Positions 27,969 through 60,077 of a stretch of 64,000 bases of DNA are shown here, one piece after another. The notes under the pieces are model-generated. The model searched no databases. It was not told the DNA's origin and saw only the letters and a list, made by a program, of their open reading frames with translations. The position numbers were made by a program, and so were the translations under genes. The DNA is taken from positions 40,672,001 to 40,736,000 of the forward strand of contig NC_043012.1 in the NCBI RefSeq assembly GCF_006345805.1. The letters run 5' to 3'. The first letter of the stretch is position 1. Each line of letters opens with the position of its first letter. Source of the stretch: Octopus sinensis (Eukaryota).

Positions 27969-29759
27969 TTGTTAAACTGTAATTATGTTTGTGTCTGGCG
28001 TTGTGCTGAAACTGTTTTTCAACATTATGGAGTTGTCACTTAGTGAAGAGAACTCGCCAACTAATGCGTTGATGGATATGTCTGTGTTTGTAACAGGTGA
28101 AGAAGGAAGAATCCAAAAAGTAGCAACCCAGAAAATAAACTTTGCAGAAGCAGCCAGGAAGAAGGAAAGTGCAATTAATATTGAAATTGAGAATCTAAGT
28201 GCTACATGAACTGCGTTTTCAAAGTGTGTCACGAGACCAGACATGTTTTTTTCTTTATGGCAGATTGAAACATAAGGGAGGAATGCATACACCAGTCGAT
28301 TTCTCCCAGGACCCACAATATTTAGTGACCTGTGGAGGGCATATTCACATATTCCAGAGATAGAGGGATACAATTGTCGACAGACCGGTGAACCACAGCG
28401 TCAAGTTTGGTAACTCCATAGATAACACACATACCCAACAAATAGAAAGTACTTGGGTGTGTTTGAAACAGGCTAACAAGCAACGGTGGGGTACACACCG
28501 TTCTATGATTGACTCGTATCCTTGCAAATTCATGTGGTGGTGGTGCAGACACGAGAAAACTGACCTTTGGGAGAAATTGCTGGAAAGCACTGGAAACTTC
28601 CAAGAAAAGTGCATCAATAATTGTTTTTTGACACAAAGAGATAAACCAGTGTGTTTCCTCTGCTCAGAATATAAGGGTCTCACAGATTTTGTAAATGTTT
28701 GCACATTTTGGGTAATTTTAGCCAATCAATAACCAGACGTATTGGTGTCTGTCTCCATAGTAACAAGCCATATAGTCTCTTCAAACTAAGACAACCAAAT
28801 ATGAACCATTTCGTTGCACGTTAGTTGGATTATTCGGTTATTCTGCAAACGTTTTCTTTGGATTGCTATTGTTGTGAAAGTAAGCTGCTCTCTATTTTAT
28901 GTTGTTGATACGATCTGTTTGTTGCCTTTTGTAAAGCAAATTGTTATTAATTCCCCCCTGGAGGGGAATTATTATTGTTAAACTGTAATTATGTTTGTGT
29001 CTGGCTTTTGTGCTGAAACTGTTTTCAACATTATGGAGTTGTCACTTAGTGAAGAGAACTCGCCAACTAATGCGTTGATGGATATGCCTGTGTTTGTAAC
29101 AGTGGTGAAGAAGGAAGAATCCAAAAAGTAGCAACCAGAAGAAATTAAACTTTGCAGAAGCAGCCGGAAGAAGGAAAGTGCAATTAATATTGAAATTGAG
29201 AATCTAAGTGCTACATGAACTGCGTTTTCAAAGTGTGTCACGAGACCAGACATGTTTTTTCTTTATGGCAGATGATGAAACATAAGGGAGGAATGCATAC
29301 ACCAGTCGATTTCTCCCAGGAACCACAATATTTAGTGACCTGTGGAGGGCATATTCACATATTCAGACCGGTGAACCACAGCGTCAAGTTTGGTAACTCC
29401 ATAGATAACACACATACCCAACAAATAGAAAGTACTTGGGCCAGTGTTAAACGGGCAATAAACGAAGCTGCAAGGTCCATGGTTCACTCATATCTGAGAG
29501 TGTATGTGGTGCTTGAGATTGTAATTCGTATAAGAAAACCCTAGGGCAGGGCTTCTCAACAGAAGTGCAGGGGAAAATTTTTGTAATGAAAAGTCATTTT
29601 TCACCTCATTTCTGTTAATTTAATATGTTTTTCTTTATGGCAGATTGAAACATAAGGGAGGAGTGCATACACCAGTCGATTTCTCCCAGGACCCACAATA
29701 TTTAGTGACCTGTGGAGGGCATATTCACATATTCCAGAGATAGAGGGATACAATTTTCG
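27969..29759 (+). repeat. Merlin-transposase-derived complex tandem repeat, block 1
   Basis: Translates through frameshifts as PGxTIFSDLWRAYSHI...VNHSVKF...HTQQIESTW...RWGTHRSMIDSY..KFMW (IS1595/Merlin DDE C-terminal half); near-identical to blocks 2-6. Confidence 0.9.
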
Positions 29760-31389
29760 CAGCTGCATAGTGTTACTGTGACGTAGACAGCTATATTGTG
29801 ACGTACTTAACGTTCGTTTGAAAATTGTAAACAGTGTGGGTAACAAGTAAGCCTTTTAAGCTATAGCAAATTGTTAGATATCAAGATCTTTACTCAATAA
29901 ATGAAGCATTGTATATTTAGAATTTCAGTTTGTAACTTTCATTTACAAAATAAAATTTTGATATTTTCGCCAGACCTCTATATCTTACGAAACTTCAATA
30001 TGTTGGTAATGCACCGTTTGATATTGGTATACGATATCATTCACCCACACAACCTTCCTTCATGACATAGACAAAAAAAGCCAGGCTGAAACAGGCGGGT
30101 AAATGACATCGTCCCCTCATAACTGACACTGTATATCAAAGTTTTTATTTTGTTCTTTAAGAATTGTCTGGGAACATGACAGTTATTGGTAATTATGAAT
30201 ATATATGCAACACGAAATAACTAAACTAATGTGGATATTGTTTTATTTTCTTCGCCTGTATCCACATGTTCTTAATATTTTATACACGTGGACTCTTATG
30301 ATAAAAGGCAGATTTTCTCTGTCTGTTCCCATGTTTCTTTTTAATACAATTCTACAATATAGAATTTCTTCAATTGGGTCATGGCATGTAAAGTTTTTTC
30401 AATTTGACCCCCAATTAAGCAAAAATTCGAGAAAACTCAATATTTAACGATTTGCCTCTTTCATTTCAAGTGCTTCACTCCTTCCATTACCACCACAGTT
30501 TCTCCTACTTTCTCTTTGCAAGTGTGCAACAATTAAAGTGAAAGTATTTATATAACAGGGATGAGCCATTAATACTGGTCATCCTTTTTGCTAGAGGAAG
30601 ATCCGCTATGGTCTTATATGCTACACCACTGGTTTTCAATTCATATTAATCAAATTAATATTCAATTTTTCACCCATATTATGTGTGTGTGTATTAGCAA
30701 TTCGTATAAAATTGCATCAATGACTTGAACAAGTGGTTTCACATAAATGGGGATAAATTAAAAAGGTTTGTTTTTATTATTATTACTGATTGACTATTGT
30801 AATCACGCTTGTTGGTTCCTCGTCAGGGAAACGTTGTTGTGTTGCATTTGTTAAATAATTGTAAACCGTAACCCTCCCCCTTTCGGAGAAGGGGCTTTGG
30901 TTATTGTTTCAAAATTGAATCGTGTCCCTGTTTGGGGAAATTGACAATATTTTCACCGTCTTTACGGAAGCATTTTTGTTTAAATGCCTTCGATAGAAGA
31001 AAGTTCAAAAATGAATTTCGCTGCAGCCGTCCAATTCTATACAAGAGGGAGGACAAGATCCAATTGATCGAAATTGCAAGAGACGGGCCTACAATTCCAG
31101 TCTGTTATATATTTTAAGTATTGTTATCACTAGCGATATCAAGATATAACTTTGTATTTTATGTGTAGATGTATATATATATATAGATGTACATGTAATA
31201 TGTACACATATATATACACATATATACATGCATAATATATCTACCCATACACACACATGGGCAGGTGTGGCTGTGTGGTAACAAACTACGTTCCAAACAC
31301 ATGGTCCTGGGTTCAGTCCCACTGTGTGGCACAATCAGTGAGACATAGTTCTTCAAAGCCGCGACAGTGGTCTTCGGCGTATTAATGAG

Positions 31390-33724
31390 ACGCATCGGTC
31401 ATAATGACGCTCTGCAGTTTCCTTTTCTTTTTCCGTAAGGAGAAGACGGGTACCATTTCGGCATTCCTCACCACAAAGCAAACGAGCCCACTGCTGCAAC
31501 ATCTAAAACTGTTTCATGTATGGCTTTTTACTCATACCGCTTCATGACAAGGCATAATGATTTCAACCCCCTGCACAGATCACGGGAACTGAGTCACCAG
31601 TTTGCAGTTGACATGGCTGCAAAGATGGAGTCCGAGAGACTGTGCTTCATCAAATTGAATCAGAAGCAGCTGCGCTCAGACTCCTACATCCATTTGCGTG
31701 AAGGCATCAGGAATGACACAATATCGGCAAAATGTGCATTCTCCCCTCAACCTATACAGGGGGCCCACAGTACATGCACGAGCAAACACAAGACGTTATG
31801 ACTTACATTCGGCATTATGGGCGACCCGATTTATTCATTACCTTTACATGTAACCCAAAGTGGGTTGAGGTAACGCGAGAACTTCTCCCAGGGCAGCAGT
31901 ACTGTCATCGCCATGATATTATTGCAAGGGTTTTCAGGCAGAAACTGGCTAAGCTCATTCATTTAATAAAAAAAGGGCAGGCTTTTGGGCCTGTTAACTG
32001 CCACATGTGTGGCGGAGGGTGTTTCGTTAAAATCTCCTAAAAAAATCAGATCACTTTTCTACTACTATGGTGTGACTTGGCTAATCCCACCTCTTTATGG
32101 CTTACCTACAAAGATTATATGTCTGAAGATTTCCTGCGTCACGCTCAATCGCTACATCCATCAATGGAGGTCGGGAACACTGACCTCATTTACAACAGGG
32201 CGCTGCTTGAAATCGAAGATACTGTACTTGATATGGGCGGTAGTACCTTGCCGGTCTATGGCCTACCTTCAACAAACCGGAAGGCACAAACACTCTGTCT
32301 TCACATTTGCTGCGTGAGACATGTTTTAATGTTGACGAGCTTGCCGAGTACATAGCCGACAATGAGCCAAAGCTCCTTCCAGAACAGAAGCTTGCTTACA
32401 ACTCCGTTGTTAATTCAGTCCGGGCCAAAGCTGGGGGGATTTTTTTCCTGGACGCTCCTGGGGGCACTGGGAAAACTTTTGTCAACAAATTAATATTGGC
32501 TGAGATTAGGCGAACACAAGGCATTGCCCTAGCTGTGGCATCATCTGGAATTGCGGCTACTTTGTTGCCAGGCGGCAGGACAGCTCACTCCACTTTCAAG
32601 CTCCCGCTTGACTTAGCGAAGACTGAGACACCAACTTGCAAGATCAGTAACAGCTCCGATCAGGCAGAAGTCTTCAGACGATGCAAGCTTATTGTTTGGG
32701 ATGAATGCACGATGGCCCACAGAGGTGCTCTTGAGGCACTAGATAGATCACTCAGAGACATCACTCTTCAGCTCCCATGGGAGGCATAACACTTCTTCTT
32801 TCAGGGGACTTCCGACAAACACTTCCCATTATTCCCAAAGGGACTAGAGCTGATGCAGTAAGTGCGTGTCTTAAGTCATTCACATTGTGGCCACTGGTGA
32901 AGACTCTCAAACTTCACACCAATATGCATGCTCATATGCAATGTGATATCACATCAGCAGCATTTTCTCACACCCTCCTTGCACTTGGCGAAGGCAAAAT
33001 ACCAGGGGATGAAAATGGTAATATTGCCATCGATTCCATTTGTACCATTGTTAAAACGCCTTCTGATCTCAGAGATGCAGTGTTCCCAGATCTACAAGCT
33101 AATTATCAGAATATGGATTGGATTGGCCAAAGGGCTATTCTGGCCCCGAGGAATAAAACTTCACCATATTAATGATGAAATGCTAAAACTTATTCCTGGG
33201 GATGTCTATGTATAATAAGTCTATCGATACAACTCCTGAGCCAGAGGACGTCATCAATTATCCAATAGAGGTACTCAATTCCTTTGAGCCCCCCGGACTA
33301 CCACCACACATTCTCAAACTTAAAGCTGGTGCCCCTATAATGCTCATTAGAAATTTGGTTCCCCCAAAACAATGCAATGGCACACGTTTGATCGTTAAGT
33401 CCTTATCTCCCAATCTAATTGAGGCCACCATTATCACAGGGTGCGGTCGAGGCAACGTTGTGCTCATACCTAGGATGCATCTTTTCCCATCAGGAGCAGA
33501 CCTACCTTTCATATTTCGGAGGTCCCAGTTCCCAGTAAGGCCATGTTTCGCAATGTCAATTAACAAATCGCAGGGTCAAACACTGTCTGTGGTGGGAATA
33601 CATTTGGGAGAGCCATGTTTCTCTCATGGTCAGCTTTGTGTTGGCTGCTCGCGTGTCGGCAGCAACAGTGATGCTTTCGCATTCGTTCCACAACGAAAAA
33701 CATTGTGTACAAGGAGGTTTTATA
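31390..33724 (+). mobile_element. Helitron Rep fragment plus PIF1-like helicase (deleted, frameshifted)
   Basis: YIRHYGRPDLFITFTCNPKW (Rep motif I); FFLDAPGGTGKTF, ASSGIAATLLPGGRTAHS, VWDEC, LSGDFRQ, CNGTRL, QFPVRPCFAMSINKSQGQT, FSHGQL. Confidence 0.95.
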
Positions 33725-35000
33725 GGATTACTACGTTTCATCATTTTCGAACATGTTAGTATTTCACTTACATACGACTCTTTTATGATGGCATTTACAT
33801 TTTTAGGCATTTCATGACATTAATTCACACTTAACCAACACCTGTCCTTTGCTCACCTCTATTTCTATCCATTCATCATCAAACCACCAGCCTCATCTAT
33901 ATCCAACGTACATGACACATCTACCCCCTCACTGTTAAAGTTTACAGAAGCGACAACACGATCGCAACATACACTTTGGAAACTAAGCAACAGATCATTT
34001 TATACAACAACAAATTTAATCATAACGCCCATCAATGAAAACATCTCCACCACTGTGTTGTGATTCATCTATTCAGCACCACTACAGTCTTGCCGGTCTG
34101 ACATATGGTGAGTAGATGCTATTGTTCTATATTTTATAAATTACCCATATTTACTTATCCCTGCTTCATTCCCCTCTTGCCTACGAACGTTTTACATCGC
34201 CTTCCACGACTATCAAATTCTTACAATTATGAGAACAATAACATGGCTCTTTTCAAGGCAACCTTGCATTCAATTCTTACACCATTCTACGAGGGGGTAG
34301 GAACCCCTTTACACAGCTTTCTATACACTTACAAATACATTCATTCGCCGTAAACTTATATCAATATTTGCTACTCGTGCACATCCAAATCATTTGCTTT
34401 GTAAACAAACAGGATAATTGAGTGCACTGCACTAGCACCGTAATTATATTAACATTGGTTCATTATTCTTCTGGCATAGGCCAATGCCTGTTGCTGTAGA
34501 TTTCCAGCTCATAACTTGTACTCGTTTTATCGACCCACCTGTAACTGGCATATTTTGAACTTGATAAACATATATATATGTAAACCTGAAAACATCTCGA
34601 GTATGTTATATATTTGTAGGGAACGGACGTGAAACCCAAGGCAATCCCATAAATCGGCCTTATCTAACTTTAATATATACTGTTCTATAACTTAGAGTGG
34701 GCTTCTTTTTTCGGATTTATGTTTACGGACGATATATATATATATAAGGTGAAAGTAAAGAATACGTACACCTGGTGTTTCGGGTTAGGGATTAGGATTT
34801 TCGTTACGCTGAAAACAGGTGGTGGGATCTTTTCTAAAAGATCCATATAGGATCTTTTCGGTTGCACAATTGCAGTGCCTCCATTGACTCTTCTTGTGTA
34901 CTTTGCATTTGCATCACAAACTGTAATATCCTGCTTTCAAATGTATTACACACCTGTTGCATAATTCTTGTGTACTTTGCATTTGCATCACAAATTGTAA

Positions 35001-36613
35001 TACTTGGGCGTGTTTGAAACAGGCTAACAAGCATCGGTGGGGTACACACCGTTCTATGATTGACTCGTATCCTTGCAAATTCATGTGGCGGTGGTGCAGA
35101 CACGAGAAAACTGACCTTTGGGAGAATTTGCTGGAAAGCACTGGAAACTTCCAAGAAAACCAGTGTGTTTCCTCTGCTCAGAATATAAGGGTCTCACAGA
35201 TTTTGTAAATGTTTGCACATTTTGGGTAATTTTAGCCAATCAATAACCAGACGTATTGGTGTCTGTCTCCATAGTAACAAGCCATATAGTCTCTTCAAAC
35301 TAAGACAACCAAATATGAACCATTTCGTTGCACGTTAGTTGGATTATTCGGTTATTCTGCAAACGTTTCTTTGGATTGCTATTGTTGTGAAAGTAAGCTG
35401 CTCTATTTTATGTTGTTGATACGATCTGTTTGTTGCCTTTTGTAAAGCAAATTGTTATTAATTCCCCCCTGGAGGGGAATTATTATTGTTAAACTGTAAT
35501 TATGTTTGTGTCTGGCGTTGTGCTGAAACTGTTTTTCAACATTATGGAGTTGTCACTTAGTGAAGAAGAACTCGCCAACTAATGCGTTGATGGATATGTC
35601 TGTGTTTGTAACAGGTGAAGAAGGAAAAATCCAAAAAGTAGCAACCCAGAAATTAAACTTTGCAGAAGCAGCCGGAAGAAGGAAAGTGCATTAATATTGA
35701 AATTGAGAATCTAAGTGCTACATGACCTGCGTTTTCAAAGTGTGTCACGAGACCAGACATGTTTTTTCTTTATGGCAGATTGAAACATAAGGAGGAATGC
35801 ATACACCAGTCGATTTCTCCCAGGACCCACAATATTTAGTGACCTGTGGAGGGCATATTCACATATTCCAGACCGGTGAACCACAGCGTCAAGTTTGGTA
35901 ACTCCATAGATAACACACATACCCACAAATAGAAAGTACTTGGGCCAGTGTTAAACGGGCAATAAACGAAGCTGCAAGGTCCATGGTTCACTCATATCTG
36001 AGAGTGTATGTGGTGCTTGAGATTGTAATTCGTATAAGAAAACCCTAGGGCAGGGCTTCTCAACAGAAGTGCAGGGGAAAATTTTTGTAATGAAAAGTCA
36101 TTTTTCTCCTCATTTCTGTTAATTTAACATGTTTTTCTTTATGACAGATTGAAATATAAGGGAGGAGTGCATACACCAGTCGATTTCTCCCAGGACCCAC
36201 AATATTTAGTGACCTGTGGAGGGCATATTCACATATTCCAGAGACAGAGGGATACAATTTTCGACAGACTGGTGAACCACAGCGTCAAGTTTGGTAACTC
36301 CATTGATAACACACATACCCAACAAATAGAAAGTACTTGGGCGTGTTTGAAACAGGCTAACAAGCAACGGTGGGGTACACACCGTTCTATGATTGACTCG
36401 TATCCTTGCAAATTCATGTGGCGGTGGTGCAGACACGAGAATACTGACCTTTGGGAGAATTTGCTGGAAAGCACTGGAAACTTCCAAGAAAAGTGCATCA
36501 ATGATTGTTTTTTCACACAAAGAGATAAACCAGTGTGTTTCCTCTGCTCAGAATATAATGTAAAAAGGCCCTTCCATGGTAGGCTGTGTTAAGGGTCTCA
36601 CAGATTATGTAAA
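35001..36613 (+). repeat. Merlin-derived tandem repeat, block 2
   Basis: Starts abruptly at tacttgggcgtgtttgaaac; same sub-units as block 1; 31-nt insertion at 36559-36589. Confidence 0.9.
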
Positions 36614-36624
36614 AAACCAAAAGG

Positions 36625-38630
36625 AGAATGGGAGACACAAGAAATAGCCCAGAGAGGCACCTGGTTTTTGCTGCTCTGGTGGCAAAGTGGACCTGCCACC
36701 CCTATGGGAACCACCTTAACTGCTTAAGGATCTCGCTGCGGGTTTAACCCCTCCAAATCGTCACAATTCCTTGAAATCATTCAAAAATACAACAGCTCAT
36801 TCCAAATGACCTCTTTCGGGGCCAAAATTCCTCCTAGAGAAGGCTGGATGCCTACTTTCAAAGTGCAGAGACAGGTCTACCATCTCATTGGGTCACTTCT
36901 GCCAGACGAGATTCAGCAGTCTTCTTTCCTCCAAATCTACTTCATTGCCGACTACAACCAGCAGGTTGATGCACGCCTTGGAATAATACCGGATTACATG
37001 TTATGTTCTCCACAAAGACGTTCTTCTCCGTCTCCAAACCATGCTTCATGATATCAACAGCTACGTCTGCAGCTTCAGGTATGCCTTGGACAGTGCTCCG
37101 TCTCCAAACTTCACCATTGTCATTGATGCTGATAAACGACCCCACGGAGAGCCTGAACGCCTTTTCAACGCACCTGCGTGCAACGAAATTGCCGCAGTCA
37201 TGCACGGAGAGTAACACAACAGCCGTGACATAATCATCTCCTCCCGTGGTAACAGCCTACGTAGGATCAGCGAGACTCACAGATCTTATGACGCACTTCA
37301 GTATCCACTGCTTTTCCCTTATGGGGAAGACGGCTACCACTTCGGAATTCCTTTACGGCAGCCCTCCAATCAAACTACTGCGGCATCAAAGACGGTTCCA
37401 GCAGAGCGTTTTACTCATACCGGTTCATGGTCAGGGAGGGTCAACTTCTTGCCCCGTTGTCGTCAGCTATTCAACCAGTTCGCCGTCGACATGGCCGCCA
37501 AAATGGAATCGGAAAGGCTGCTATACATTAAACTTAATCAGACCAAACTTCACTCCAACTCCTACATTCATCTCCGTAACGGCTTGCAACAAGAAAATGA
37601 CCCTCGCAACATCGCCATGCATTCTACCCTCCACCTTCACGGGAGGACCGTGATATATGCGTGAAAGGACCCAAGACACTTAGACCTACGTGCGCATTTA
37701 CGGCTGGCCGGACCTCTTTATCACCTACACGTGCAATCCCAACTGCGACGAAATCACTCGCAAACTCCTCCCGGGTCAGTCTCACACCCATCGACACGAC
37801 ATCGTTGCTAGGGTTTTCCGTCTGAATTTGGGCAAAATGATGGATTTGATAGTTACGGGTCAGATTTTCAGGCATGTAAGGTGCCAAATGCTTACGGTCA
37901 AGTGGCAAAAGAGGGACTTGCCACATGCTCACATCTTAATTTGGCTAACTAATAAAATCAAGACTAATGACATTGACAAATTCATTTCCGCCCAGATTCC
38001 TGACCCCGATGAGGACCCCGAATTGTACGAAATTGTCCGCACTACCATAGTACACGGGCCCTGTGGATCAAATTACGCCAACACACCATGCTGCAAAAAC
38101 GGATTAGCCTGCTCAAAGGGATTCCCTAAACGGTTCACTTTGGAGACTCAAACAGGCGGCGATGGGTATCCGCTGTACAAACGAAGGAGTCCAGCCAATG
38201 GAGGCCGCACGATTACGGTTGGGTGACATCATGTGGACAACAGCTACATCGTCCCCTACTGTCCTCCTCTGTCGAAGATATTCAAAGTCCACGTCAACGT
38301 TGAGTTCTGCAGCTCCATCAGGTCAATACAATATGTCTGCAAATATATCAACAAGGGCAGCGATGCTGCCATGTTTAGCATCCAGAGGACCACCAGTCAC
38401 GATGAAGTGTCCAACTACTTGGCAGGCCGGTACCTCAGCAGCAACGAAGCGTTTTGGCACATTTACAGCTTCCCACTTCATCAGAGACACCCAGCTGTGG
38501 TGCAGCTTGCTGTACACTTGGAAAATGGACAGCGGATTTACTTCACAGAACAAACTGCTGCACAGGTAGCCACCAACCCTAAAGACACAACGTTGGCCGG
38601 TTTCTTCAAATTATGCCAACATGACTTCGC
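36625..38630 (+). mobile_element. Second Helitron, Rep (HUH) domain fragment
   Basis: CCSGGKVDLPP, FQMTSFGA, PTFKVQRQVYHLIGSL, PDLFITYTCNP, WQKRDLPHAHILIW, HGPCG, YVCKYINKGSD, LAVHLENGQR. Confidence 0.95.
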
Positions 38631-38709
38631 TAAATTCTTAGAATTCCTCAGGCTCCCTCCCTCCTGGTTGTCTCCCCCTGTCAAAGATACGGTGCACATA
38701 CAATTAACC

Positions 38710-39180
38710 TGTAGTGACGTTATACAACAGTGCGCGTGCGCAACGTCATTTTCAGTGTGTGTGTGCGGAACGTCCTTCTTCAGTGTGCGTGTGCAGGGTT
38801 GGAGCCTTCTGGAAAGGCAGAAGGGAAGTGCCCTCTCGGACATGCGCGAAGACTGAAGAAGGAATTGCTGATGTGGCATTAGCTGATAGGCGAGGGACAG
38901 CGTTCCCTTAACAAGGGCACAGAGAGACACGCATAGCAGCAGTAGCAGAACGCCTTCATACGAGATTGTGGCAGACCTATTTTCTCCGCTGTCTCTGGAC
39001 GCTAAGATTTGACCTGCTCTGTTTTGCTGCTGAACTTGTAAGATTCTTACAAGTGTTAAAGTTCAGCCTTGCCACACCAGAACCAAATGGATACCAATAT
39101 ACCACCTTACTTCTTTCTGTGAATAAGAAAATAAAGAATATATATATTTTTAAGGTTGCGTTCGTGTTCCTTGACTGGTA
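38710..39180 (+). mobile_element. Possible LTR fragment
   Basis: Begins TGTAGTGAC, contains aataaa near 39131, lies upstream of Gypsy pol; no second LTR or clear PBS seen. Confidence 0.3.
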
Positions 39181-42448: not shown

Positions 42449-42467
42449 ATGAAAATGATTCCTATGA

Positions 42468-48670: not shown

Positions 48671-48708
<38 letters not shown>

Positions 48709-49850: not shown

Positions 49851-49859
49851 CTGAGATAC

Positions 49860-50640
49860 AGTGAGAGTGAAATATAGGGAAAGATAAGGTGGTTGACTGA
49901 GAGGAGAGGAGAAAGGAGGAAAGCCCGGGGGGGGGGAGAAAAAGAGAGAGACGAGGGGATTGTCCTGAGAGAAGACAGAAAGAATGACAGGTCAGCAGGG
50001 GGAGATTGAGCGGGATAGAGGTGTAGTAGAGAGAAAGTAAAGGGACAGGGAGGAAAAGAGAGACAAGAGGATGGACCTTAGGGGGAGCAGGGAGAAGAAA
50101 GACGGAGAGATAAAATGGAGAGGGAGAGAGAGGGCGGGATAGAGGTACCAGAGTGAAGTAAAGGGACAGAGAGGGTCGTGTGGAGGAAGGAGACAGAGAG
50201 AAGAAAAAGAGACAAGGGGGTGAGCCTTAGAGGGAGCAGGGAGAGGAAAGGTAGGAAGAAAAAGGGGAGAGGGGAAAAAGGGGGCATGACAGAGGTGCAA
50301 GAGAGTGTAGTAAAGGGACAGGAGAAGAGGGAAAGGGATTTGACTTGTGAGGGAGCGGAGAGAAGAGAGGCAGAGAGGGAGGGAGGGAGGGAGAGTAACA
50401 GAGAGAGAGTGGGATATAGATACAAGAGAGAATGAGTGAAGTAGAGGAACTGGGAGGGGGGTGAGATGTGAGAAAGTTGATCTGAGAGAGAGAGATGCAG
50501 AAAGAGAAACGATGGTAGAGAGAGAGAGGGGGCGAGCGGAAATAGAGGGTCTGGTGGATGGAGAGACAGATAAGGTAGAGAATTGTAAGAAAGAGATAGA
50601 GAGAGTATGGCAGATAGATAGGATTGAGAGATGAGGACAG
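49860..50640. repeat. Purine-rich (GA) low-complexity tract
   Basis: Directly visible strong purine skew. Confidence 0.85.
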
Positions 50641-51344
50641 GCTGTGTCACGGACGAATCTATAAACAAACGCGTTAAAGATAAAATAGCGCGTATTTTTT
50701 TATATCTTTTATATCTATGTCTTATTAGGCGATCTTAGAAATGTAAGATCGTCAATTATTAATAATAGTAAATAATTTTTTTTTTTTTCGTTTTTTTTAT
50801 CTTCTGGTTGAGAGAACACTATAATAATAAATATTCTTCTTACCTTCCGACTAAGAGAACACCTACCATCACTTCATTTTAGAAGAAAGAAAGATAAAAA
50901 GACAGACCTTCGATATTTCTGTATCCCTTACTTGTATTTTGTAAACAAAAGAAAAGAATAGAGTTCCGATGTTCGTAGATGCAAAAATTTTCAATATTTT
51001 CTTAAGCAATTTGGTATCAGGCAGCAAATTTTCAGATGTTTTCAAAACACGCAGATACACGACACCAAAAGCAAAAAATATCCTTCTCAAAAATACAGTG
51101 TCTTGTCGTTGCTTCACAGACAAAATTCACATCGACTTCAGGAAGTAACACACGTGCTCGCGAGGTGTGTTCTAGTCGCAAATACTATATCAAAAGCGAA
51201 AATATTCTTCTCAAATACAGTGTCTTGTCGTACTTTCACTTATATTTGCTTTACAGACAAAATTCACTTCTGATAACATCGATCTCTTGAAGGTCTTTTT
51301 AAACTTTTGGAGAGACACAATAACACACGACTTGTTAGTTCGGC

Positions 51345-51500
51345 GCCATATATATACATATTTCTTCAAACCCACAGATTCTCACGTCTACCTCAACTTC
51401 TCCTCCCCCATCCCTTCCACACGTAATGGGCCATCCCCTACTCCCAGTTCCTCCGCCTCTGATGCTTGAGCAGCACGACCAAGATTTTAAGACCCAGTCC
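51345..51500 (+). mobile_element. Penelope RT-thumb fragment
   Basis: FKPTDSHVYLNFSS...AIPYSQFLRL. Confidence 0.7.
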
Positions 51501-52075
51501 CTTCAATATCTACATGGATGAAACTGGCATAACAACTGTGCAGTGCCCCGATAGAATTATTGCCAGAAAAGGAACAAAGCAAGTGGGAAAAATGACAAGT
51601 GCGGAGAGGGGAACTCTAGTCACATGGGCATGCTGTGTAAATGCTGGTGGAAACAGCATACCACCGTTTTTTGTTTTTCTCCGGAAGAACTTAGGGCCAC
51701 ATTTCCTGAACAATGGTCCATGAGGCAGCGATGGAGGTGCTAATCCATCTGGTTGGATGTGTGAGGAGCAGTTTGTGAAATTCCTTCAACACTTTGTGAA
51801 GAATGGGAAATGTTCGAAGCAGTCACGATTCCCAGCTTAGTATCGAGGGGCTGACTTATGCATCAGACAATGGCAGCACCATGCTTTATTTCCCACCTCA
51901 CTGCACACACAGGTTACAGCCATTGGACAAAGCGGTCTATGGACCACTGAAAAGTACACAAACGCTGCCATTGATGACGGGCATATCAACCATCCTGGCC
52001 AGACCATGACCATTTATGACATTCCGTGTATTGTCAAAAACTGCATGACCATTGACTGCAACTCCGACGAACATT
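51501..52075 (+). mobile_element. pogo/Fot1-like DDE_1 transposase fragment
   Basis: NIYMDETG...SAERGTLVTWACCVNAGGNSIPPFFVF, NPSGWM, FPPHCTHRLQPLDKAVYGPLK. Confidence 0.88.
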
Positions 52076-52310
52076 CTTAGTTGTTTCCGCCAACATGGAG
52101 TTGTTCCTGCATTTGTGAATTGCCCAACATGTAATTCCCCTTGCGTTCTTTGAAATGGAACTAATATGTTTTGATGTAGGAAGATGGTTCGGCGTCGGAG
52201 ACAAAGGAAAACAGAATGCGGGTTTTCAGTGTCTATCTTCAAGAACACCTTTGTGGAGCGAAGCCGTTTACCCCTGTGGAAAGTTCTTTTGAGGTGGGCC
52301 ATGTTGGTGT
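52076..52310 (+). mobile_element. Merlin/IS1595-type transposase N-terminal (zinc ribbon) fragment
   Basis: FRQHGVVPAFVNCPTCNSPC...ECGFSVSIFKNTFVERSRLPLWKVL. Confidence 0.55.
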
Positions 52311-52424
52311 CTTAGATTTACAAGAAAAAACCCGGCCGTCAGGGCACACACGACATTACCTCCCTCCCGACAACGAGGGAAAACTTGTTAACTTTCGCAC
52401 ATTCACTCAAAGATAGCGGAGAAT

Positions 52425-53018
52425 ATAAATATGGATGAAGTACCTTTGACATTTGACCTGCCTCTCACTTGGACAGTTAATAAAAAGGTCACTCGTCCCT
52501 CACACTGAAAACAAGTGGCCATGAGAGAACGCATTTTACCTGTGTTCTGAGCTGCACAGCATCTGGACTAAAGATTCCACCGATGGGGACCTTTAAGCGG
52601 CTGACAATGCCAAAGGAAAAATTCCCAAAAGAAATCGTGGTGAAAGTCAATAAGAAAGGTTGGATGATGGAGAGCCTAATAACGATTGGCTCAGAGAGTG
52701 CCACGCCAAGCGACCTGGGGGGAGTTTTTCACACAAAAACAAGCATTGCTCGTTATGGACAGCATGAGGGCACATATAACAGATTCAGTGAAAGCTGCCA
52801 TCAAGAGTACCAACTCAATTCCAGCTGTGATTCCTGGGGGCACCACTAAGTATTCGGAGCCACTGGACATCAGCGTGGACCGGACATTTAAAGTGGCTCT
52901 GCACCGTGAGTGAGAGCGACAACGAAGTGGCTGAAGTGAGTGACGAGATTCGGACACTGAAGAAGAGGACTTTGATGGTTTCAGTGCACTGGAAGAAGAT
53001 GAAGAAGGTGATCAATGA
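52425..53018 (+). mobile_element. pogo (POGK-like) transposase fragment
   Basis: NMDEVPLTFD, KTSGHERTHFTCVLSCTASGLKIPPM, KGWM, LLVMDSMRAH, VIPGGTTKYSEPLDISV, acidic tail SDTEEEDFDGF. Confidence 0.9.
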
Positions 53019-53039
53019 CTTTTGACCTGGTAGGCTGCA

Positions 53040-53080
<41 letters not shown>

Positions 53081-53537
53081 ATGAAAGAAGGTTTGAAAAT
53101 GCAATTTTAAAAGATGTTTATTCACTTGACCAGTTTCATTTTTTTTTTACGATAAAATGGTGAAACAGGTCAGTTCATCCCAAATTCTTTGTAAACTAAA
53201 TATATCTCCTTCATTGTACATATATATATACTATCAAAATATGACCTTTTTGGACTTATAATTTTCTGTGTATATATATATATAGATACTTCCAAACAAA
53301 CATGATCTCTAATGAAATCCCAATATTCTTTATGAACTTAATATTTTTTTCTGTAATCTGTTCTTAACATATTCTTATCAAAGAATGTATATATGTATTT
53401 TAATACTTTTGTGACAACTAGTACCTAACACAACAAAGCTTTTACATGTTACTTTTGACAATCCTTTTCTAAAGAAAGGTGAAACCGGTCAAGTGAATGA
53501 ACATCTTTTAAAATTGCATTTTCAAACCTTCTTTCAT
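53081..53537. repeat. 58-bp inverted repeat pair (probable inverted Penelope pLTR ends)
   Basis: 53081-53138 pairs with 53480-53537 (tgaaaccggtcaagtgaatgaacatc...ttctttcat); abuts the Penelope ORF. Confidence 0.75.
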
Positions 53538-53544
53538 ATATAAT

Positions 53545-54538
53545 TCCACTTGTGCAAGAGTGAAGATTCTCTTTTCGATGTCCCGATGGGGGCATACGAC
53601 GGGGCTGAGATATGTATGCTCATAGGAGCCTATATTCTACATGATGACGGCCTTATAGCCACCCATAATTTAAACGGCCATGAATCAGATAAACTTAGGA
53701 AGGACCTTATTGCTTTCTTCCAAAGGATGGGCTTATGGGTTACGTTAGATACTAACCTGAAAAGTGTAGATTTTTTAGATGTAAATTTGAATTCAAGGTC
53801 GGATAAATTTAAACCTTACCGTAAGCCTAATGACAAGCTATCGTATATTAGCAAAGAATCAAATCAACCGCCAGTTATTCTTAGGAACTTAGTTAGCAAT
53901 GTAATATACGAATATCGTCAATTTCTTCTGATGAGGCAGCATTCCATAAAGCTGCACCTTCTTAGGAATAGTGGATTCTCTGAGAAGATCCAGTATAACC
54001 AACTTAATGCTAATAGTAATGCTACACGTAGAACTAGGACCAGGAAAGTTTTGTGGTTCAACCCAGCTTTCAATTTGGCCGTAAAAACAAACATAGGTAG
54101 GGAATTCTTGAAATTAGTCCCTAGGCATTTTCAAAAGGATCATAAATTTCATAGAAGAACCCTTAAGATCAGCTATTCTTGTTGCAGGAACCTTGCCTCT
54201 TACGTTAACCAGCACAACAGGAAATTAAATGATAATAAGCATAGTGCCGATCCTCTTAAAAAATGTAATTGCAAAGATGGATCCTCCTGTCCATTGGAAG
54301 GGAAATGTTTGGAAAAAGGAATTGTAAATAGAGCCAAGGTGCAAATAGAAGGCTCACCTGAATATAAGATTTATACAGGGGCTACTAAAAATTCTTTTAA
54401 AACTCGATTTTATTTGCACAAAAATTCCTTTCTATACCCAGAAAATAAGACAAAGACCAACCTGGCGAAATATGTCTGGGAACTAAGAGAAAAAGAAGTC
54501 CGACTTTTCAACGTGTCATGGAACATTCTAGATAGAGC
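53545..54538 (+). mobile_element. Penelope-like retroelement RT to GIY-YIG fragment
   Basis: FDVPMGAYDGAEIC, DDGL, VDFLDV, PYRKPN, VLWFNPAF, CNCKDGSSCPLEGKCL, KIYTGATKNSFKTRFYLHK; runs directly into repeat block 4. Confidence 0.92.
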
Positions 54539-54820
54539 GGCAGGGTTTCTCAACAGAAGTGCAGGGGGAAAATTTTTGTAATGAAAAGTCATTTTTCACC
54601 TCATTTCTGTTAATTTAATATGTTTTTCTTTATGGCAGATTGAAACATAAGGGAGGAGTGCATACACCAGTCGATTTCTCCCAGGAACCACAATATTTAG
54701 TGACCTGTGGAGGGCATATTCACATATTCCAGAGATAGAGGGATACAATTTTCGACAGACCGGTGAACCACAGCGTCAAGTTTGGTAACTCCATAGATAA
54801 CACATACCCAACAAATAGAA
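54539..54820 (+). repeat. Merlin-derived tandem repeat, block 4 (short)
   Basis: ggcagggtttctcaacagaagtgcagg...cccaacaaatagaa. Confidence 0.9.
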
Positions 54821-56032
54821 GGTATAATTTTATACTGAACTCATATGTTTTGTTTATCGCTCGCCTATGACCGTTATTTGAAAGGACCAATCAAACAAAT
54901 CCATTTCTAAAGGTGTGTCACTTATGCTAGTCTTGATCGAATTGTCATCCCGGTTCTATTTTAACAAAACTGTCCGACAAACGGGAATGGGAAACTCCGA
55001 GCAACAGCTTTTGTTAAATTTCTGCTGCTTTTAAATAAAAATATATACACACACACCAGTCATTAGGAGGAATGCTGTTCATGCACTGTTCAGTAAAAAA
55101 GCATAAGCAACGTAATTTGTGTGTTACTGATACGCACATATATTTAAGAGTAGGCGTGTTACAGGAATGGGACCGACCCCGCCGTGTCTGCTCTCGCTCA
55201 GGTTTCCTCTACTGCATCTTCCTTATCACATAAGGATATCTTGGAGGAACTGCAGCATATCAAACCAGGAACAACAATAAACCTGTGGTGACAAATCAAA
55301 CACCAAATGAGACACACACCATGGCATGTAAACCTCACCAGGCATCTGTGAAATAAAAAACAGCCCACTAGGTTTTAAAAAATGTGTATAAAACGAATAT
55401 GAAAAGACAAATTTCCACAAACAAATGGATGGATAAGGAGAGGACTTTCGGAAAATTCACAAGATTCAATTTTTCCCTCATAACTTTCAGGAAAATGGAT
55501 ATATATTGATAAAATGTTATATAGAAATACCATTTAGGTAGCACAAATTATGGTCATACAGAAATCTCTGGCAACTGTCAGTACACGAAATGGAATACAA
55601 TGTTGAAAACATAATCCCAAGGTTTATCCTTTTTAAATTCCAACAGTATGTAACATGAAATTTCTTTGATATTGTAGTGACGCTATTTTTGGAAGTTTTC
55701 AGGACACATGCACAGAGTTGGATTACTTCCGGTAGGCCGCCAGAAGTTCCCTCATACGCAGAGAACTGCAAACTGAAAGTGTCTATCGGTCATTCATTAC
55801 ATCTGGGGTGTGAAAATAATGGACCCACTGCAAAATTTCAAGCATGTGGACATATTGTATGGAATGTTCCAAAATCCAAATTAGACAATACACTTAAATA
55901 TCAAAAACCTGTAACAAGGAAAAGTGGATTTGTTAAGAAGACAACTTGGATATTTTGAGCTGTTAAAAGTTTAATAACATAACAAAAAAAAAAAAAAACT
56001 TTTTTTCTTTTGAGAAAATATTCATACATATA

Positions 56033-57945
56033 ATGGAGCAAAATATAAAAGAATTTGAGACGTCATATTTCGATAGAAATTACACACAAGCTTCTGTGAA
56101 TGTATTGAATTGTCCTCCGTGGACTGGAGACACCGTAATTCGGTTGGCACAACTGGAGGCAAGCTTTAAAGCTAATAAAATTACAAATGAAGAGCAGAAA
56201 TACAATATAATGCTCAGCAATTTACCTCCACCTCTAAGTAATGAAATTAGAGATTTGCTACTAAACCCAATAGAACCAGTTTCTTATTCTTCTTCAATTA
56301 AAGAGGAAATATTGAAACGAACATCAAATTCTAAACAAAAAGAGTTTGCGAAGTTATTCAACAATGAAGAGTTGGGTAATAAAAAACCCACACAACTTCT
56401 GCGAAGAATGAATGAACTTCTGGGAAATCAGCAGATAGAAGAATCTTATCTCAAAGAAGTGTTTTTCTATAAATTGCCATATAAAACTCAAACTTTGCTT
56501 TCGGCCGTTAAAAACCAAAACTCCATTCAACAGTTGGCAGATTTAGCAGACAGTATTCTGGAATTATCGTCCAAAGAAACTGTAAATGCAATTCCATCTA
56601 TTTCGAATGAAATACAGGAATTAAAAGATTGTTACCAAAAACAATTTGAATTATAAACAAAAAAAATAGAGAGTTTGCAACTCGAAAGAAATAGTCGCTC
56701 GGCTCAACAAAAAAATGCAAGATGGCGCAGGAGATCAAGGAGCCCTAGTTTAAAAAGAAACGCCATATGTTGGTACCATGCTAAATTTGGAGACAAATCA
56801 TTCAAATGTATTAAACCCTGTGCATTTGATTTCCTTAATAAAAAAAGGAAAATTCGGAAAACTTCTGAACCACCGATTGGATGCGACGAAATCTGTGGAT
56901 AACATCATAAAAAGTCACGTATTTTTCATCTATGATTTAAACTCAAAAGAAAGGTTTTTAGTTGATACAGGAGCAGCTTGTTCAATTTGGCCAGTAAAGC
57001 TTTTAAAACAAAAAACCAAACCTGTTTATTTGACTCTTCAAGCAGTTATTCTATCTGAAATCCAAACATTTGGAGAGATTAGCTTAACTCTAGATATAAA
57101 CTTAAGAAGAGAGTATAAATGGATCTTCATAGTAGCAGATTTACCATATCCAATATTAGGAGCGGATTTTTTGGCACACTATCATTTAATGGTAGATGTT
57201 AAAAATCAAAAATTGATAGACACAGGAACTTCATTAAAAATTCAAGGAATGAGATGCAGAAAAGCCACACTCAGTCCATTGCATTTCATAGCGTCCTCAG
57301 AAAATAGATATCACAGGATTTTGAAGAATTATCCAAATATCACGAAACAGCTCTAAATACCAAGTGTGTGCATTCGGTACAGCATCACATCGTCACACAA
57401 GGGCCACCAAGTTTTTCTAAGCTGAGAAGATTATCTCCGGAAAAATTGAAGGTAGCTACGGCAGACTTTCGGCATATGATGGATCTAGGTATAATCCGTC
57501 CTTCCAGTAGTAGCTGGTCAACACCATTAGTTATGGTAAAGAAAAATCTTATAGACTGGCGACCTTGTGGAGACTTCAGACAACTTAATGCAAAAACAAA
57601 AGCAGACAAATATCCAACACCACACATTATGGACTTTGCAACTTCTTTGAGTGGTTGTGCTATTTTTTCAAAAATTGATTTAGTCGGAGCATACAATCAA
57701 ATTCCTGTTGCAGAAAATGATATACCGAAGACAGCGATTACCACTGCATTTGGTTTATTTGAATTTCTTCGCATGCCTTTTGGATTGAGGAATGCAGCAA
57801 ACACTTTTCAAAGATTTATGGACAAAGTAACAAGAGATTTACCTTTCGTATTTGCTTATATAGATGATATTCTCATTGCTAGTCCATCAGAAGAAGCACA
57901 CGAAGAACATTTGAAAACAATTTTCGAAAGATTGACAAATTTTGA
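56033..57945 (+). mobile_element. Ty3/Gypsy gag-protease-RT fragment (second family), no LTRs
   Basis: gag PPWTGDTVIRLAQLEASF, ELGNKKPTQLLRRM, CWYHAKFGDKSFKCIKPC; protease FLVDTGA; RT WRPCGDFRQLN, RMPFGLRNA, FAYIDDIL. Confidence 0.95.
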
Positions 57946-58049
57946 AAATTCTTTGATTTCCTGAAACACTTTCTTATCACTATGGCATAGCAACGCACAT
58001 CTACAAGAAAGGATATATCCCGCACTACCAAGGCTAAACAATTTACGCA

Positions 58050-58530
58050 TGGGCATACTCATGGAATTAAACACAGTGACGATGATGGAATTCTTCACCA
58101 TATGGGAGTGAGACATGTTGTCTGAGGGAAAGAGAAATGGCAATTTTGAGAAGAACCAACAGAGCAATGTAATCCTGTAATGTGCAGATGTACCTTTCAT
58201 TGCACAATACAGTATCCGATGGAAAAACGTGCAGGTGCACTGTTTTCAATCGATTTTGTGGCATTAGGCAAGATTCGTTTTTCTCCGGTGCATGCCTATA
58301 GAATGCAAACAGTGGTGTGATGAGTGAAGTTGGAATCGCATCAGAAGCAACTGTTAACTGGTACAATTACATCTGCAATGTTCGTGCCGTGTGGAGCTTT
58401 GGCCACCCTGTGCAACTTGGGAGATATTATAGAAATTGACGAATCCAAGTTCATGCACAGGAAATATCATCACAGTTGTTATCAACGAAGGCCTTGGGTT
58501 CTTTGAATGGTTGAACAGGACAACCTCAGA
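58050..58530 (+). mobile_element. Merlin/IS1595-type transposase N-terminal half including the first catalytic Asp
   Basis: GIRQDSFFSG, EVGIASEATVNWYNYI, IIEIDESKFMHRKYH...PWVL*MVE. Confidence 0.8.
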
Positions 58531-58570
58531 TGGGTTTTCAATTCAAATAGATAAAGAAGAAAAGTTCCTG

Positions 58571-60077
58571 ACTCATATCACCGTCTACTTTCAATCTTGA
58601 GAGTGTATGTGGTGCAGGAGATTGTAATTCGTATAAGAAAACCCCTAGGGCAGGGCTTCTCAACAGAAGTGCAGGGCAAAATTTTTGTAATGAAAAGTCA
58701 TTTTTCTCCTCATTTCTGTTAATTTAACATGTTTTTCTATATGACAGATTGAAACATAAGGGAGGAGTGCATACACCAGTCGATTTCTCCCAGGAACCAC
58801 AATATTTAGTGACCTGTGGAGGGCATATTCACATATTCCAGAGATAGAGGGATACAATTTTCGACAGACCGGTGAACCACAGCGTCAAGTTTGGTAACTC
58901 CATAGATAACACACATACCCAACAAATAGAAAGTACTTGGGTGTGTTTGACACAGGCTAACAAGCAACGGTGGGGTACACACCGTTCTATGATTGACTCG
59001 TATCCTTGCAAATTCATGTGGTGGTGGTGCAGACACGAGAAAACTGACCTTTGGGAGAAATTGCTGGAAAGCACTGGAAACTTCCAAGAAAAGTGCATCA
59101 ATGATTGTTTTTTGACACAAAGAGATAAACCAGTGTGTTTCCTCTGCTCAGAATATAAGGGTCTCACAGATTTTGTAAATGTTTGCACATTTTGGGTAAT
59201 TTTAGCCAATCAATAAGCAGACGTATTGGTGTCTGTCTCCATAGTAACAAGCCATATAGTCTCTTCAAACTAAGACAACCAAATATGAACCATTTCGTTG
59301 CACGTTAGTTGGATTATTCGGTTATTCTGCAAACGTTTCTTTGGATTGCTATTGTTGTGAAAGTAAGCTGCTCTATTTTATGTTGTTGATACGATCTGTT
59401 TGTTGCCTTTTGTAAAGCAAATTGTTATTAATTCCCCCTTGGAGGGGAATTATTATTGTTAAACTGTAATTATGTTTGTGTCTGGCTTTGTGCTGAAACT
59501 GTTTTTCAACATTATGGAGTTGTCACTTAGTGAAGAGAACTCGCCAACTAATGCGTTGATGGATATGCCTGTGTTTGTAACAGGTGAAGAAGGAAAAATC
59601 CAAAAAGTAGCAACCCAGAAATTAAACTTTGCAGAAGCAGCCGAGAAGAAGGAAAGTACAATTGATATTGAAATTGAGAATCTAAGTGCTACATGAACTG
59701 CGTTTTCAAAGTGTGTCACGAGACCAGACATGTTTTTTCTTTATGGCAGATTGAAACATAAGGGAGGAATGCATACACCAGTCGATTTCTCCCAGGAACC
59801 ACAATATTTAGTGACCTGTGGAGGGCATATTCACATATTCCAGAGATAGAGGGATACAATTTTTGACAGACCGGTGAACCACAGCGTCAAGTTTGGTAAC
59901 TCCATTGATAACACACATACCCAACAAATAGAAAGTACTTGGGCGTGTTTGAAACAGGCTAACAACCAACGGTGGGGTACACACCGTTCTATGATTGACT
60001 CGTATCCTTGCAAATTCATGTTACGGTGGTGCAGACACGAGAAAACTGACCTTTGGGAGAAATTGCTGGAAAGCACT
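58571..60077 (+). repeat. Merlin-derived tandem repeat, block 5
   Basis: actcatatc[18 nt]tgagagtgtatgtggtgcagg...gctggaaagcact. Confidence 0.9.

What the first reader, a model, noticed from the sequence alone, without database searches (positions are those of the whole stretch)
29759..58571. Repeat register resumes just downstream after several cassettes: insertion with a small deletion, no TSD
Seen: block 1 stops at gatacaattttcg and block 2 resumes at tacttggg (about 70 bp further along the unit). Block 2 stops at cacagatt.tgtaaa and block 3 resumes at cggttattc (about 140 bp further). Block 4 stops at caaatagaa and block 5 resumes at actcatatc (about 55 bp further). Other junctions skip several hundred bp. 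Break points differ each time but four of six right-hand block ends fall in the transposase-derived part. Inference: a once-continuous tandem array was repeatedly cut and repaired by pasting in foreign DNA or cDNA (break capture), rather than being hit by ordinary transposition. Small-RNA-guided or transposase-guided cutting of the repeat is one candidate trigger.
Basis: partly seen in the sequence, partly recalled or inferred. Interest (0 to 1): 0.72.

Follow-up and report, generated by a model that had tools for sequence, protein, structure and literature searches.

The report
One-way transposon mosaic with recurring module
In an octopus-like genome, about 37 kb of broken transposon and virus pieces, nearly all facing the same way as in small-RNA defence loci, alternate with copies of one transposon-derived module that looks copied in between the pieces rather than left over from a cut tandem array.

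Summary
The junctions are real: 0 of 5 cassettes has a target-site duplication and none shows a recognisable transposon end. The 70- and 137-bp skips are exact; the '55-bp' skip uses the wrong internal copy (about 1,040 bp). On the plain 1,371-bp unit the five skips are not shorter than chance (P=0.16). The larger signal is elsewhere. From about 27 kb to the window's end, 14 of 14 tool-oriented transposon or parvovirus-like fragments lie on the + strand (one further LINE, called by eye, is on minus); the flank is mixed (32 to 35). That is the layout of a one-strand piRNA cluster; no RNA could be tested. The repeat is a decayed Merlin transposase derivative. Five of six blocks are 1.4-1.8 kb, right ends cluster, and three start at one shared rearranged joint. 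A 47-bp duplicate ends cassette 5 and begins cassette 1, as if a block was pasted into one sequence and the order later permuted, which would undo two of the three short skips. Best reading: a finite module copied into a growing mosaic by break repair, then shuffled by recombination. Guided cutting is unsupported.

The parts
27000..64000 (+). Co-oriented mosaic of truncated transposon and parvovirus-like fragments; runs off the right end of the window; a piRNA precursor would be read from the minus strand (inferred)
   Evidence: microsatellite runs 3.1 per 10 kb in 25601-64000 against 78 in 1-25600
27969..29759 (+). Block 1: Q-M-T-Q-M'-P-M, u861 to u270, 1,791 bp
35001..36613 (+). Block 2: M-T-Q-M'-P-M-T, u341 to u586, with a 37-bp deletion shared with block 6 and an insert of about 31-34 bp at 36556-36589
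42468..44269 (+). Block 3: T piece u724-757 joined to P, then M-T-Q-M'-P-M to u399, 1,802 bp; holds the reference unit 42500-43870
54539..54821 (+). Block 4: P-M, u56-338, 283 bp
58598..60077 (+). Block 5: P-M-T-Q-M, u6 to u482, 1,480 bp (1,001-bp period)
60916..62332 (+). Block 6: T piece u732-757 joined to P, then M-T-Q-M to u427, 1,417 bp
42633..42990 (+). M part of the unit: decayed Merlin (IS1595-family) transposase C-terminal half; M' repeats its head and switches to a second Merlin family
   Evidence: Pfam DDE_Tnp_IS1595 E=6.5e-4, below the curated cut-off; profile from 30 relatives, iE 1.7e-22 here
43332..43360 (.). G/C hairpin at the T/Q boundary, in 5 of 5 long copies; possibly a head-to-tail join of decayed termini (inference)
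29761..29807 (+). 47-bp duplicate, first bases of cassette 1
   Evidence: 46 of 47 identical to 60871-60917; only such pair among 36 end-start pairs, random pairs reach at most 11 bp
60871..60917 (+). 47-bp duplicate, last bases of cassette 5
29760..35000 (+). Cassette 1: unassigned DNA, SINE-like head, internally deleted Helitron Rep and helicase (31439-33759), 38-bp direct repeat abutting block 2 (34891-34928, 34965-35002)
36614..42467 (+). Cassette 2: second Helitron Rep fragment (to about 38620), Gypsy RT cut in RNase H (39385-40400), broken parvovirus-like stretch with NS1 helicase (about 40400-42445)
   Evidence: Helitrons 65% identical
44270..54538 (+). Cassette 3: 127-bp x4 tandem, L1/Tx1-like LINE ORF2 (45138-48547), two pogo-type DDE_1 fragments (51400-52910), a Merlin N-terminal piece (52106-52297), Penelope-like ORF cut inside its C-terminal domain (53544-54538)
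48870..49990 (-). Probable LINE 5' part (ORF1 and start of an endonuclease), the one counter-oriented fragment
   Evidence: by eye from recalled motifs; not confirmed: Pfam none, 501 of 2000 shuffles score as high, PDB none, atlas 0.76 Myb lead only
53081..53537 (.). MITE-like element with 67-nt inverted ends in a TA run: an ordinary-looking insertion inside cassette 3
54822..58597 (+). Cassette 4: unassigned DNA, Gypsy gag-protease-RT cut in RT (55967-57940), third Merlin-family fragment (58311-58597)
60078..60915 (+). Cassette 5: N-terminal piece of an integrase-bearing element (60227-60600), 46-bp piece of the unit's Q part (60630-60675), 47-bp duplicate
   Evidence: 84% identical to P0172, named by its source as an Octopus sinensis protein, Pfam PF00665
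62333..64000 (+). Cassette 6 (incomplete): second broken parvovirus-like NS1 helicase piece starting just before its Walker A motif, then a LINE endonuclease start
   Evidence: 79.5% identical over 166 bp to the first NS1 piece; endonuclease E=0.035, weak
27137..27956 (+). Left neighbour: ORF fragment of an uncharacterised eukaryotic cluster and a 130-bp palindrome ending 12 bp before block 1; Crypton-like by recall only
   Evidence: atlas score 0.95

Best explanation
The region is a one-directional graveyard of transposon and virus fragments, most likely a one-strand piRNA source locus transcribed from the minus strand (layout shown; transcription and piRNAs inferred). The repeat blocks are end-trimmed copies of a finite 1.5-2 kb module made from a decayed Merlin transposon dimer (shown). 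Copies were put in among the fragments by break repair that copies from a sister block and joins by short homology, sometimes duplicating a short stretch of the target (inferred; shown best for the 47-bp pair). Recombination between the 95-99% identical blocks later permuted the cassettes (inferred). The apparent 'resumption just downstream' follows from the module's preferred ends: right ends in M, left ends near the T757-P joint. Selection for antisense piRNAs is the likely cause of the common orientation (inferred).
For: Orientation: 14 of 14 tool-oriented elements on + (P=1e-4), 14 of 15 with the LINE called by eye (P=0.001), against 32 same and 35 opposite repeat pairs in the left 25.6 kb. 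Poly(A) signal words are fewer on the minus strand, 13 against 27 (P=0.04; weak). Block lengths 1791, 1610, 1802, 283, 1480, 1417: five within a 1.27-fold range, P=0.0007 for exponential and 0.003 for gamma-2 lengths. Right ends in u270-586 (P=0.004); 4 of 5 left ends within 90 bp of the T757-P joint (P=0.001-0.03 by assumed period). The 3 P copies that open blocks 3, 5 and 6 share one 2-base allele, the 3 that follow M' share the other. 47-bp duplicate anchored at both junctions. Repair marks: insert near the end of block 2, 38-bp repeat at the start of block 2, Q piece inside cassette 5; private substitutions 17 in 1,664 sites within 150 bp of block edges against 18 in 5,894 further in (P=0.0006).
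Against: No RNA or small-RNA evidence at all. Only 1 of 36 end-start pairs matches, so for the other blocks the missing halves must lie outside the window or be lost. The two halves around the 47-bp piece could not be shown to be one element (inverted similarity reached by 120 of 1000 shuffles). With u757 joined to u1 all 5 skips are short and forward, and block divergence is star-like (6-13 differences per about 770 bp, no clear distance trend); both fit an array-first history. All clustering tests were chosen after seeing the data, with n of 5 or 6. Edge divergence is also expected from weaker homogenisation at the edge of a repeat. One probable counter-oriented LINE. Cassette order could be an assembly error.
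Confidence: 0.5

Rival explanations
1. Array first, break capture later: a higher-order tandem array of period about 1.76-2.1 kb was broken once per period in the second M-T stretch, resected both ways and joined to foreign DNA.
For: In that register skips are 70, 137, 413, 424, 249 bp and four of five span u587-723; star-like divergence; no TSD; edge-enriched substitutions.
Against: Needs every period hit in the same zone and none left whole; the required unit is never intact; the same sequence is uncut in 5 of 5 first copies, against any sequence-guided cutter; plain-unit skips not significant; leaves the 47-bp pair unexplained; each cassette is itself 2-7 unrelated pieces.
Confidence: 0.25
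2. Ordinary nested transposition into a Merlin-derived satellite, followed by deletions that erased the ends and TSDs, with blocks kept alike by gene conversion.
For: Cassette elements are internally deleted and frameshifted; one MITE-like insertion keeps its ends; the L1/Tx1-like element is 5'-truncated as LINEs usually are.
Against: All 11 block-cassette junctions would have lost their termini, while 8.4 kb of blocks show only three larger deletions, each shared between copies; does not explain end clustering or block lengths.
Confidence: 0.12
3. RNA route: a reverse transcriptase jumped between transposon, viral and module RNAs and pasted chimeric cDNA, so that common orientation comes from mechanism and not selection.
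For: All classes co-oriented, DNA transposons included; right ends (the RNA 3' side) cluster; same-polarity EVE-LTR chimeras in Aedes are ascribed to copy choice (10.1101/127498, passages).
Against: No poly(A) tails at cassette or block ends; right ends spread over 316 bp; non-coding hairpins and palindromes are carried along; no spliced piece could be shown.
Confidence: 0.08
4. The order is partly an assembly artefact: unique cassettes were chained through 95-99% identical blocks in the wrong order.
For: Would give the permuted 47-bp pair directly; no reads could be laid.
Against: Blocks carry private variants and are under 2 kb; no N in the window; the repeat itself is held by runs of 9 studies; cannot create the strand bias.
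Confidence: 0.05

Closest known systems
Aedes aegypti EVE-bearing piRNA clusters (10.1101/127498; passages seen)
   Same: Loci over 50 kb where viral pieces are interspersed with transposon fragments in one direction, some crowded by one repeat, giving mostly antisense piRNAs.
   Different: There the recurring partner is an LTR retrotransposon and copy choice is proposed; here it is a Merlin DNA-transposon derivative, the viral pieces are parvovirus-like, and no piRNAs are shown.
Drosophila flamenco and flam-like unistrand clusters (PMC10643416; passages seen)
   Same: Dense transposon fragments with strong strand bias over tens of kb or more.
   Different: Their bias is driven by Gypsy elements only; here Helitron, LINE, Penelope-like, pogo, Merlin and Gypsy all share it, and a constant module alternates with the cargo.
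crystal/Su(Ste) region crystal1 (PMC13643785; passages seen)
   Same: Fragments of a transposon-containing tandem repeat interspersed with transposon relics, read as a piRNA cluster.
   Different: crystal1 fragments are in both orientations and of varied length; here one orientation and near-constant block length.
Transposon-derived tandem arrays (PMC5932611; passages seen) and Merlin elements (PMC8101967; passages seen)
   Same: Head-to-tail units from a DDE transposon, often with damaged ends; Merlin transposase homology.
   Different: No block holds more than about 1.5 units; no 24-bp or longer TIR and no 8-9 bp TSD was found.
Molluscan piRNA clusters (PMC6128900; passages seen)
   Same: Molluscs, octopus included, have PIWI genes; snail clusters are enriched for Gypsy and DNA transposons.
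   Different: The passages seen describe no cephalopod cluster and no repeat-cassette alternation (the words tandem, satellite and strand do not occur in the main text; supplements not read).

Membership tests
Unistrand (flamenco-like) piRNA cluster | Dense transposon fragments over tens of kb | tested here: met
   At least 14 elements in about 37 kb, running off the window
Unistrand (flamenco-like) piRNA cluster | Strong strand bias of fragments | tested here: met
   14 of 14 by tools, 14 of 15 with the LINE called by eye; flank 32 to 35
Unistrand (flamenco-like) piRNA cluster | Long one-strand precursor antisense to the fragments | not tested
   No reads were laid on the locus; left open
Unistrand (flamenco-like) piRNA cluster | 24-31 nt, 5'-U piRNAs mapping uniquely to one strand | not testable with these tools
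   No small-RNA data available
flam-like cluster in the strict Drosophila sense | Strand bias confined to Gypsy elements | tested here: not met
   Only 2 of 14 oriented elements are assigned to Gypsy, and one more bears an integrase of unassigned type (definition)
Merlin transposon (the repeat unit) | DDE_Tnp_IS1595-type transposase | tested here: met
   Decayed C-terminal half, profile iE down to 2.6e-27; N-terminal origin of part Q not supported
Merlin transposon (the repeat unit) | TIRs of 24-462 bp beginning GG | tested here: not met
   Only a hairpin with arms of about 9 bp at the T/Q boundary; no long inverted repeat of the unit among the 25 longest of 134 pairs shown
Merlin transposon (the repeat unit) | 8-9 bp TSD at block ends | tested here: not met
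   Left-flank end against right-flank start of the same block shares at most 6 bp in 6 of 6 blocks
Ordinary transposon insertion (the cassettes) | TSD and intact termini at cassette borders | tested here: not met
   TSD 0-2 bp in 5 of 5; borders cut reading frames of Penelope-like, Merlin and NS1 pieces
Non-autonomous LTR element with the block as LTR | Fixed LTR ends (TG...CA, recalled) | tested here: not met
   All 12 block ends differ
CRISPR-like repeat-spacer array | Repeats of fixed length and ends, duplicated at each acquisition | tested here: not met
   Lengths 283-1,802 bp, ends ragged over 90-316 bp; resemblance is in layout only
CRISPR-like repeat-spacer array | Dedicated integrase and polar growth | tested here: inconclusive
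   No intact transposase or integrase gene found in the window; no clear divergence gradient among five blocks

The most novel reading that the evidence does not exclude
A cephalopod piRNA locus that grows like a repeat-spacer array: each capture of transposon or virus DNA is coupled to duplication of a Merlin-derived module, which fixes orientation, supplies homology arms for shuffling cassettes, and may itself be where piRNA-linked breaks occur. That would be an acquisition route for animal small-RNA immunity beyond the passive trap model.
Probability: 0.07. Interest if true: 0.9.

Novelty: new variant of a known kind. Interest (0 to 1): 0.5.

Why it matters
How piRNA clusters gain new antisense sequence is usually put down to transposons jumping in. 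Here the borders look like repair joints and not insertions, DNA transposons and parvovirus-like pieces are oriented as strictly as retroelements, and a near-identical module marks each border, so breakpoints, deletion sizes and cassette order can be read in unit coordinates across individuals and sister species. That makes capture-by-repair directly testable. I found no description of such a locus in a cephalopod: searches for piRNA cluster with octopus (15 papers, 12 listed), piRNA with cephalopod (14 listed), octopus with endogenous viral element and parvovirus (0 papers) and CRISPR-like piRNA clusters (3 listed) showed none in titles and abstract starts; the library lacks most subscription papers.

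Tried and rejected
No whole genome is held. No RNA holder listed: not evidence either way; no read or contig evidence on empty sites, other alleles or expression was obtained, so these stay open. The repeat pattern was not found in metagenome contigs and had no look-alike among earlier findings. A homologue search with the M' frame found none; the representative search did. No viral contig relative of the NS1 piece. Part P as a Penelope derivative (which would make junction 54539 a homologous switch): profile stops at 54554 and does not hit other P copies, rejected as unproven. Part Q as Merlin N-terminus: not supported. The two halves around the 47-bp piece as one fold-back element: 120 of 1000 shuffles as good, rejected. 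Flanks of cassette 1 belonging to different unit classes: block 2's first M shares a deletion with block 6 but shares SNPs with its own neighbour, inconclusive. First Q-M of block 1 and last Q-M of block 6 are the closest pair (8 of 568 differences against 12 and 15; 3 of 283 in M, lowest of 21 pairs): suggestive only, noticed after the fact. Higher diversity of P and M (2.8-2.9%) than T (0.6%) is mostly an edge effect: private changes P/M against T/Q P=0.10. Left ends do not cluster on the plain unit (P=0.55). The minus-strand LINE could not be confirmed by four tools. Pfam ORF scans covered 81 plus and 85 minus frames of 70 aa or more and 149 of 163 shorter frames in unexplained stretches (14 dropped as lying in repeats or known frames); read-through scan covered 18 frames only.
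Full report
Setting. The window has no N. Its left 25.6 kb is rich in microsatellites (78 runs per 10 kb), the rest is not (3.1 per 10 kb). A fragment at 60227-60600 is 84% identical to a protein that its source names as Octopus sinensis, so the genome is octopus-like. No whole genome is held. The repeat is held by 20 of 24 listed public runs, from 9 studies and four organism labels, at 0.44-0.65 of the sampled words (none was laid), so it is a real repeat of several related animals.

The repeat. Taking the real copy at 42500-43870 as reference (1,371 bp), the unit has parts P (u1-133), M (u134-500), T (u501-860), Q (u861-1133) and M' (u1134-1371). M is the decayed C-terminal half of a Merlin (IS1595-family) transposase; M' repeats the head of M and switches to a second Merlin family. 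Units without M' and P give a 1,001-bp period. Merlin TIRs and TSDs as defined in PMC8101967 (passages) are absent; only a short hairpin lies at the T/Q boundary. Six blocks occur: 27969-29759, 35001-36613, 42468-44269, 54539-54821, 58598-60077 and 60916-62332, differing by 0.9-5.3% in pairs of segments.

Checking the observation. Skips across the five cassettes are 70, 137, 1,027, 1,038 and 249 bp. The third figure (55 bp) treats block 4's M as M'; it is preceded by P, so the register is wrong, and the 9-bp match at 58571 sits within a separate Merlin fragment that runs to about 58597. The skips are not shorter than chance in sum (P=0.16; 48 of 120 permutations); 3 of 5 at or under 250 bp is borderline (P=0.045; 8 of 120). 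Against my own reading: blocks 3 and 6 both begin with a piece of T ending at u757 joined to u1, and in that register the skips are 70, 137, 413, 424 and 249 bp. No cassette has a TSD over 2 bp, and borders cut inside reading frames: the Penelope-like ORF before its last conserved cysteines, a Merlin piece mid-transposase, an NS1 piece just before Walker A. Five of six right ends are in the transposase-derived part; all six lie in u270-586 (P=0.004).

What the cassettes are. Each is a mosaic of unrelated, truncated pieces. Oriented by tools: the Merlin module (counted once), two Helitrons, two Gypsy elements, two parvovirus-like NS1 pieces, an L1/Tx1-like LINE, two pogo-type pieces, a Penelope-like element, two further Merlin pieces and an integrase-bearing element: 14 of 14 on + (P=1e-4). 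The 85 long minus-strand frames gave no transposon family. One probable LINE at 48870-49990 lies on minus by eye but was not confirmed; with it, 14 of 15 (P=0.001). A weak LINE endonuclease at 63550-64000 (E=0.035) and the ORF at 27137 are also on + but are not counted. In the left flank, dispersed repeat pairs are 32 same and 35 opposite. This is the layout of one-strand piRNA clusters: flam-like loci (PMC10643416, passages) and Aedes loci where viral pieces are interspersed with transposon fragments in one direction and give antisense piRNAs (10.1101/127498, passages). Molluscs have the pathway (PMC6128900, passages). Transcription and piRNAs are inferred, not shown. An earlier AI note on another genome describes a similar layout; it is a lead, not support.

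How blocks and cassettes came to alternate. Four things point to a finite module and not a cut array. (1) Five of six blocks are 1.4-1.8 kb (P=0.0007 under random cuts). (2) Four of five cassette-following blocks start within 90 bp of the T757-P joint (P=0.001-0.03), and the three whose P start is readable share an allele that the three internal P copies lack. (3) The unit that an array model needs, M-T757 followed by P, is never intact, whereas u587-723 is intact in 5 of 5 copies followed by Q. (4) The first 47 bp of cassette 1 repeat the last 47 bp of cassette 5 (46 of 47); it is the only such match among 36 end-start pairs, and random pairs reach at most 11 bp. The simplest reading is one event in which a block of about 1.7 kb (u732 to u270) was copied into a sequence with a 47-bp staggered overlap, after which recombination between blocks, or an assembly error, permuted the order. 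One crossover between a Q-M-T-Q-M dimer and such a block gives exactly blocks 1 and 6; their first and last Q-M are the closest pair, which is suggestive only. The halves could not be shown to be one element, and no other pair of halves lies in the window.

Repair marks. Where both parents are in the window, joints show 2-4 bp of microhomology (read by eye). There is an insert about 25 bp inside the end of block 2, a 38-bp direct repeat abutting its start, and a 46-bp piece of Q inside cassette 5. Private substitutions are 3.4-fold denser within 150 bp of block edges (17 of 1,664 against 18 of 5,894; P=0.0006). Such marks are those of microhomology-mediated end joining and template switching (established knowledge; one search gave listings only), though edge divergence also arises when homogenisation fades at repeat borders. 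Ordinary transposition also occurs: a MITE-like element keeps its ends.

Guided cutting. A sequence-guided nuclease would not spare 5 of 5 sister copies of the candidate interval, and a Merlin transposase would act at termini, where only the left end of block 1 lies. Three breakpoints do fall within about 10 bp at u338-348, so a local weak point is not excluded.

Verdict. Observation partly confirmed; interpretation partly supported (repair joints yes, continuous array and guided cutting no). Best reading, 0.5: a piRNA-cluster-like one-way mosaic in which a Merlin-derived module was copied in by break repair and later shuffled; I put the piRNA-source part alone at about 0.7. Refined array-first capture 0.25, eroded transposition 0.12, cDNA jumping 0.08, assembly order 0.05. 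It works like a unistrand cluster but is not shown to be one, and fails the Gypsy-only criterion of flam-like clusters. All clustering tests are after the fact with five or six points. Papers were seen as passages or listings only; supplements were not read, and cluster tables there could hold comparable loci. New variant of a known kind; interest 0.5; novel case (capture coupled to module duplication) probability 0.07, interest 0.9.

Noticed in passing
window 40400-41569: A capsid-like C-terminal frame (by eye, recalled motif) ends about 50 bp before the start of the NS1-like frame on the same strand, the reverse of the usual parvovirus gene order (recalled); it would fit integration from a head-to-tail concatemer or circle. 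Fused in frame to the cut Gypsy RNase H.
   Followed up: partly
window 44633-45140: Four 127-bp copies, 99% identical, covering what looks like the ORF1 end and spacer of the L1/Tx1-like element: a very recent local duplication.
   Followed up: no
window 54539: The Penelope-like frame runs on in frame into block 4 for a few codons that loosely mimic its missing C-terminus; may mark a longer microhomology.
   Followed up: partly
unit u338-348 (window 35001, 54821, and the M' switch near 43821): Three independent breakpoints within about 10 bp, at the conserved motif around the last catalytic residue of the Merlin transposase: start of block 2, end of block 4, and the switch between two Merlin families.
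   Followed up: no
unit u266-272: Hypervariable six bases (five different states among ten copies) that coincide with the end of block 1 and the right edge of the 27-bp deletion in M'.
   Followed up: no
window 34783-34797: Short telomere-like run inside cassette 1.
   Followed up: no
window 24977-25026 and 26500-26549: Perfect 50-bp inverted repeat 1.5 kb apart at the left edge of the mosaic: probably a young DNA transposon marking the boundary.
   Followed up: no
window 1-25600: Microsatellite-rich flank with many SINE-like and short dispersed repeats in both orientations and a 3.5-kb TA/CA-rich array at 19262-22803; a small LINE RT piece near 20650 (by eye).
   Followed up: partly
window 1194-1363 and 1763-1932: 170-bp inverted repeat, 98% identical, around a (CATA)n tract: a MITE carrying a microsatellite.
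   Followed up: no
variants among the unit copies: 31 of 60 variable sites are transversions or multi-state and only 7 are CpG-type transitions.
   Followed up: no
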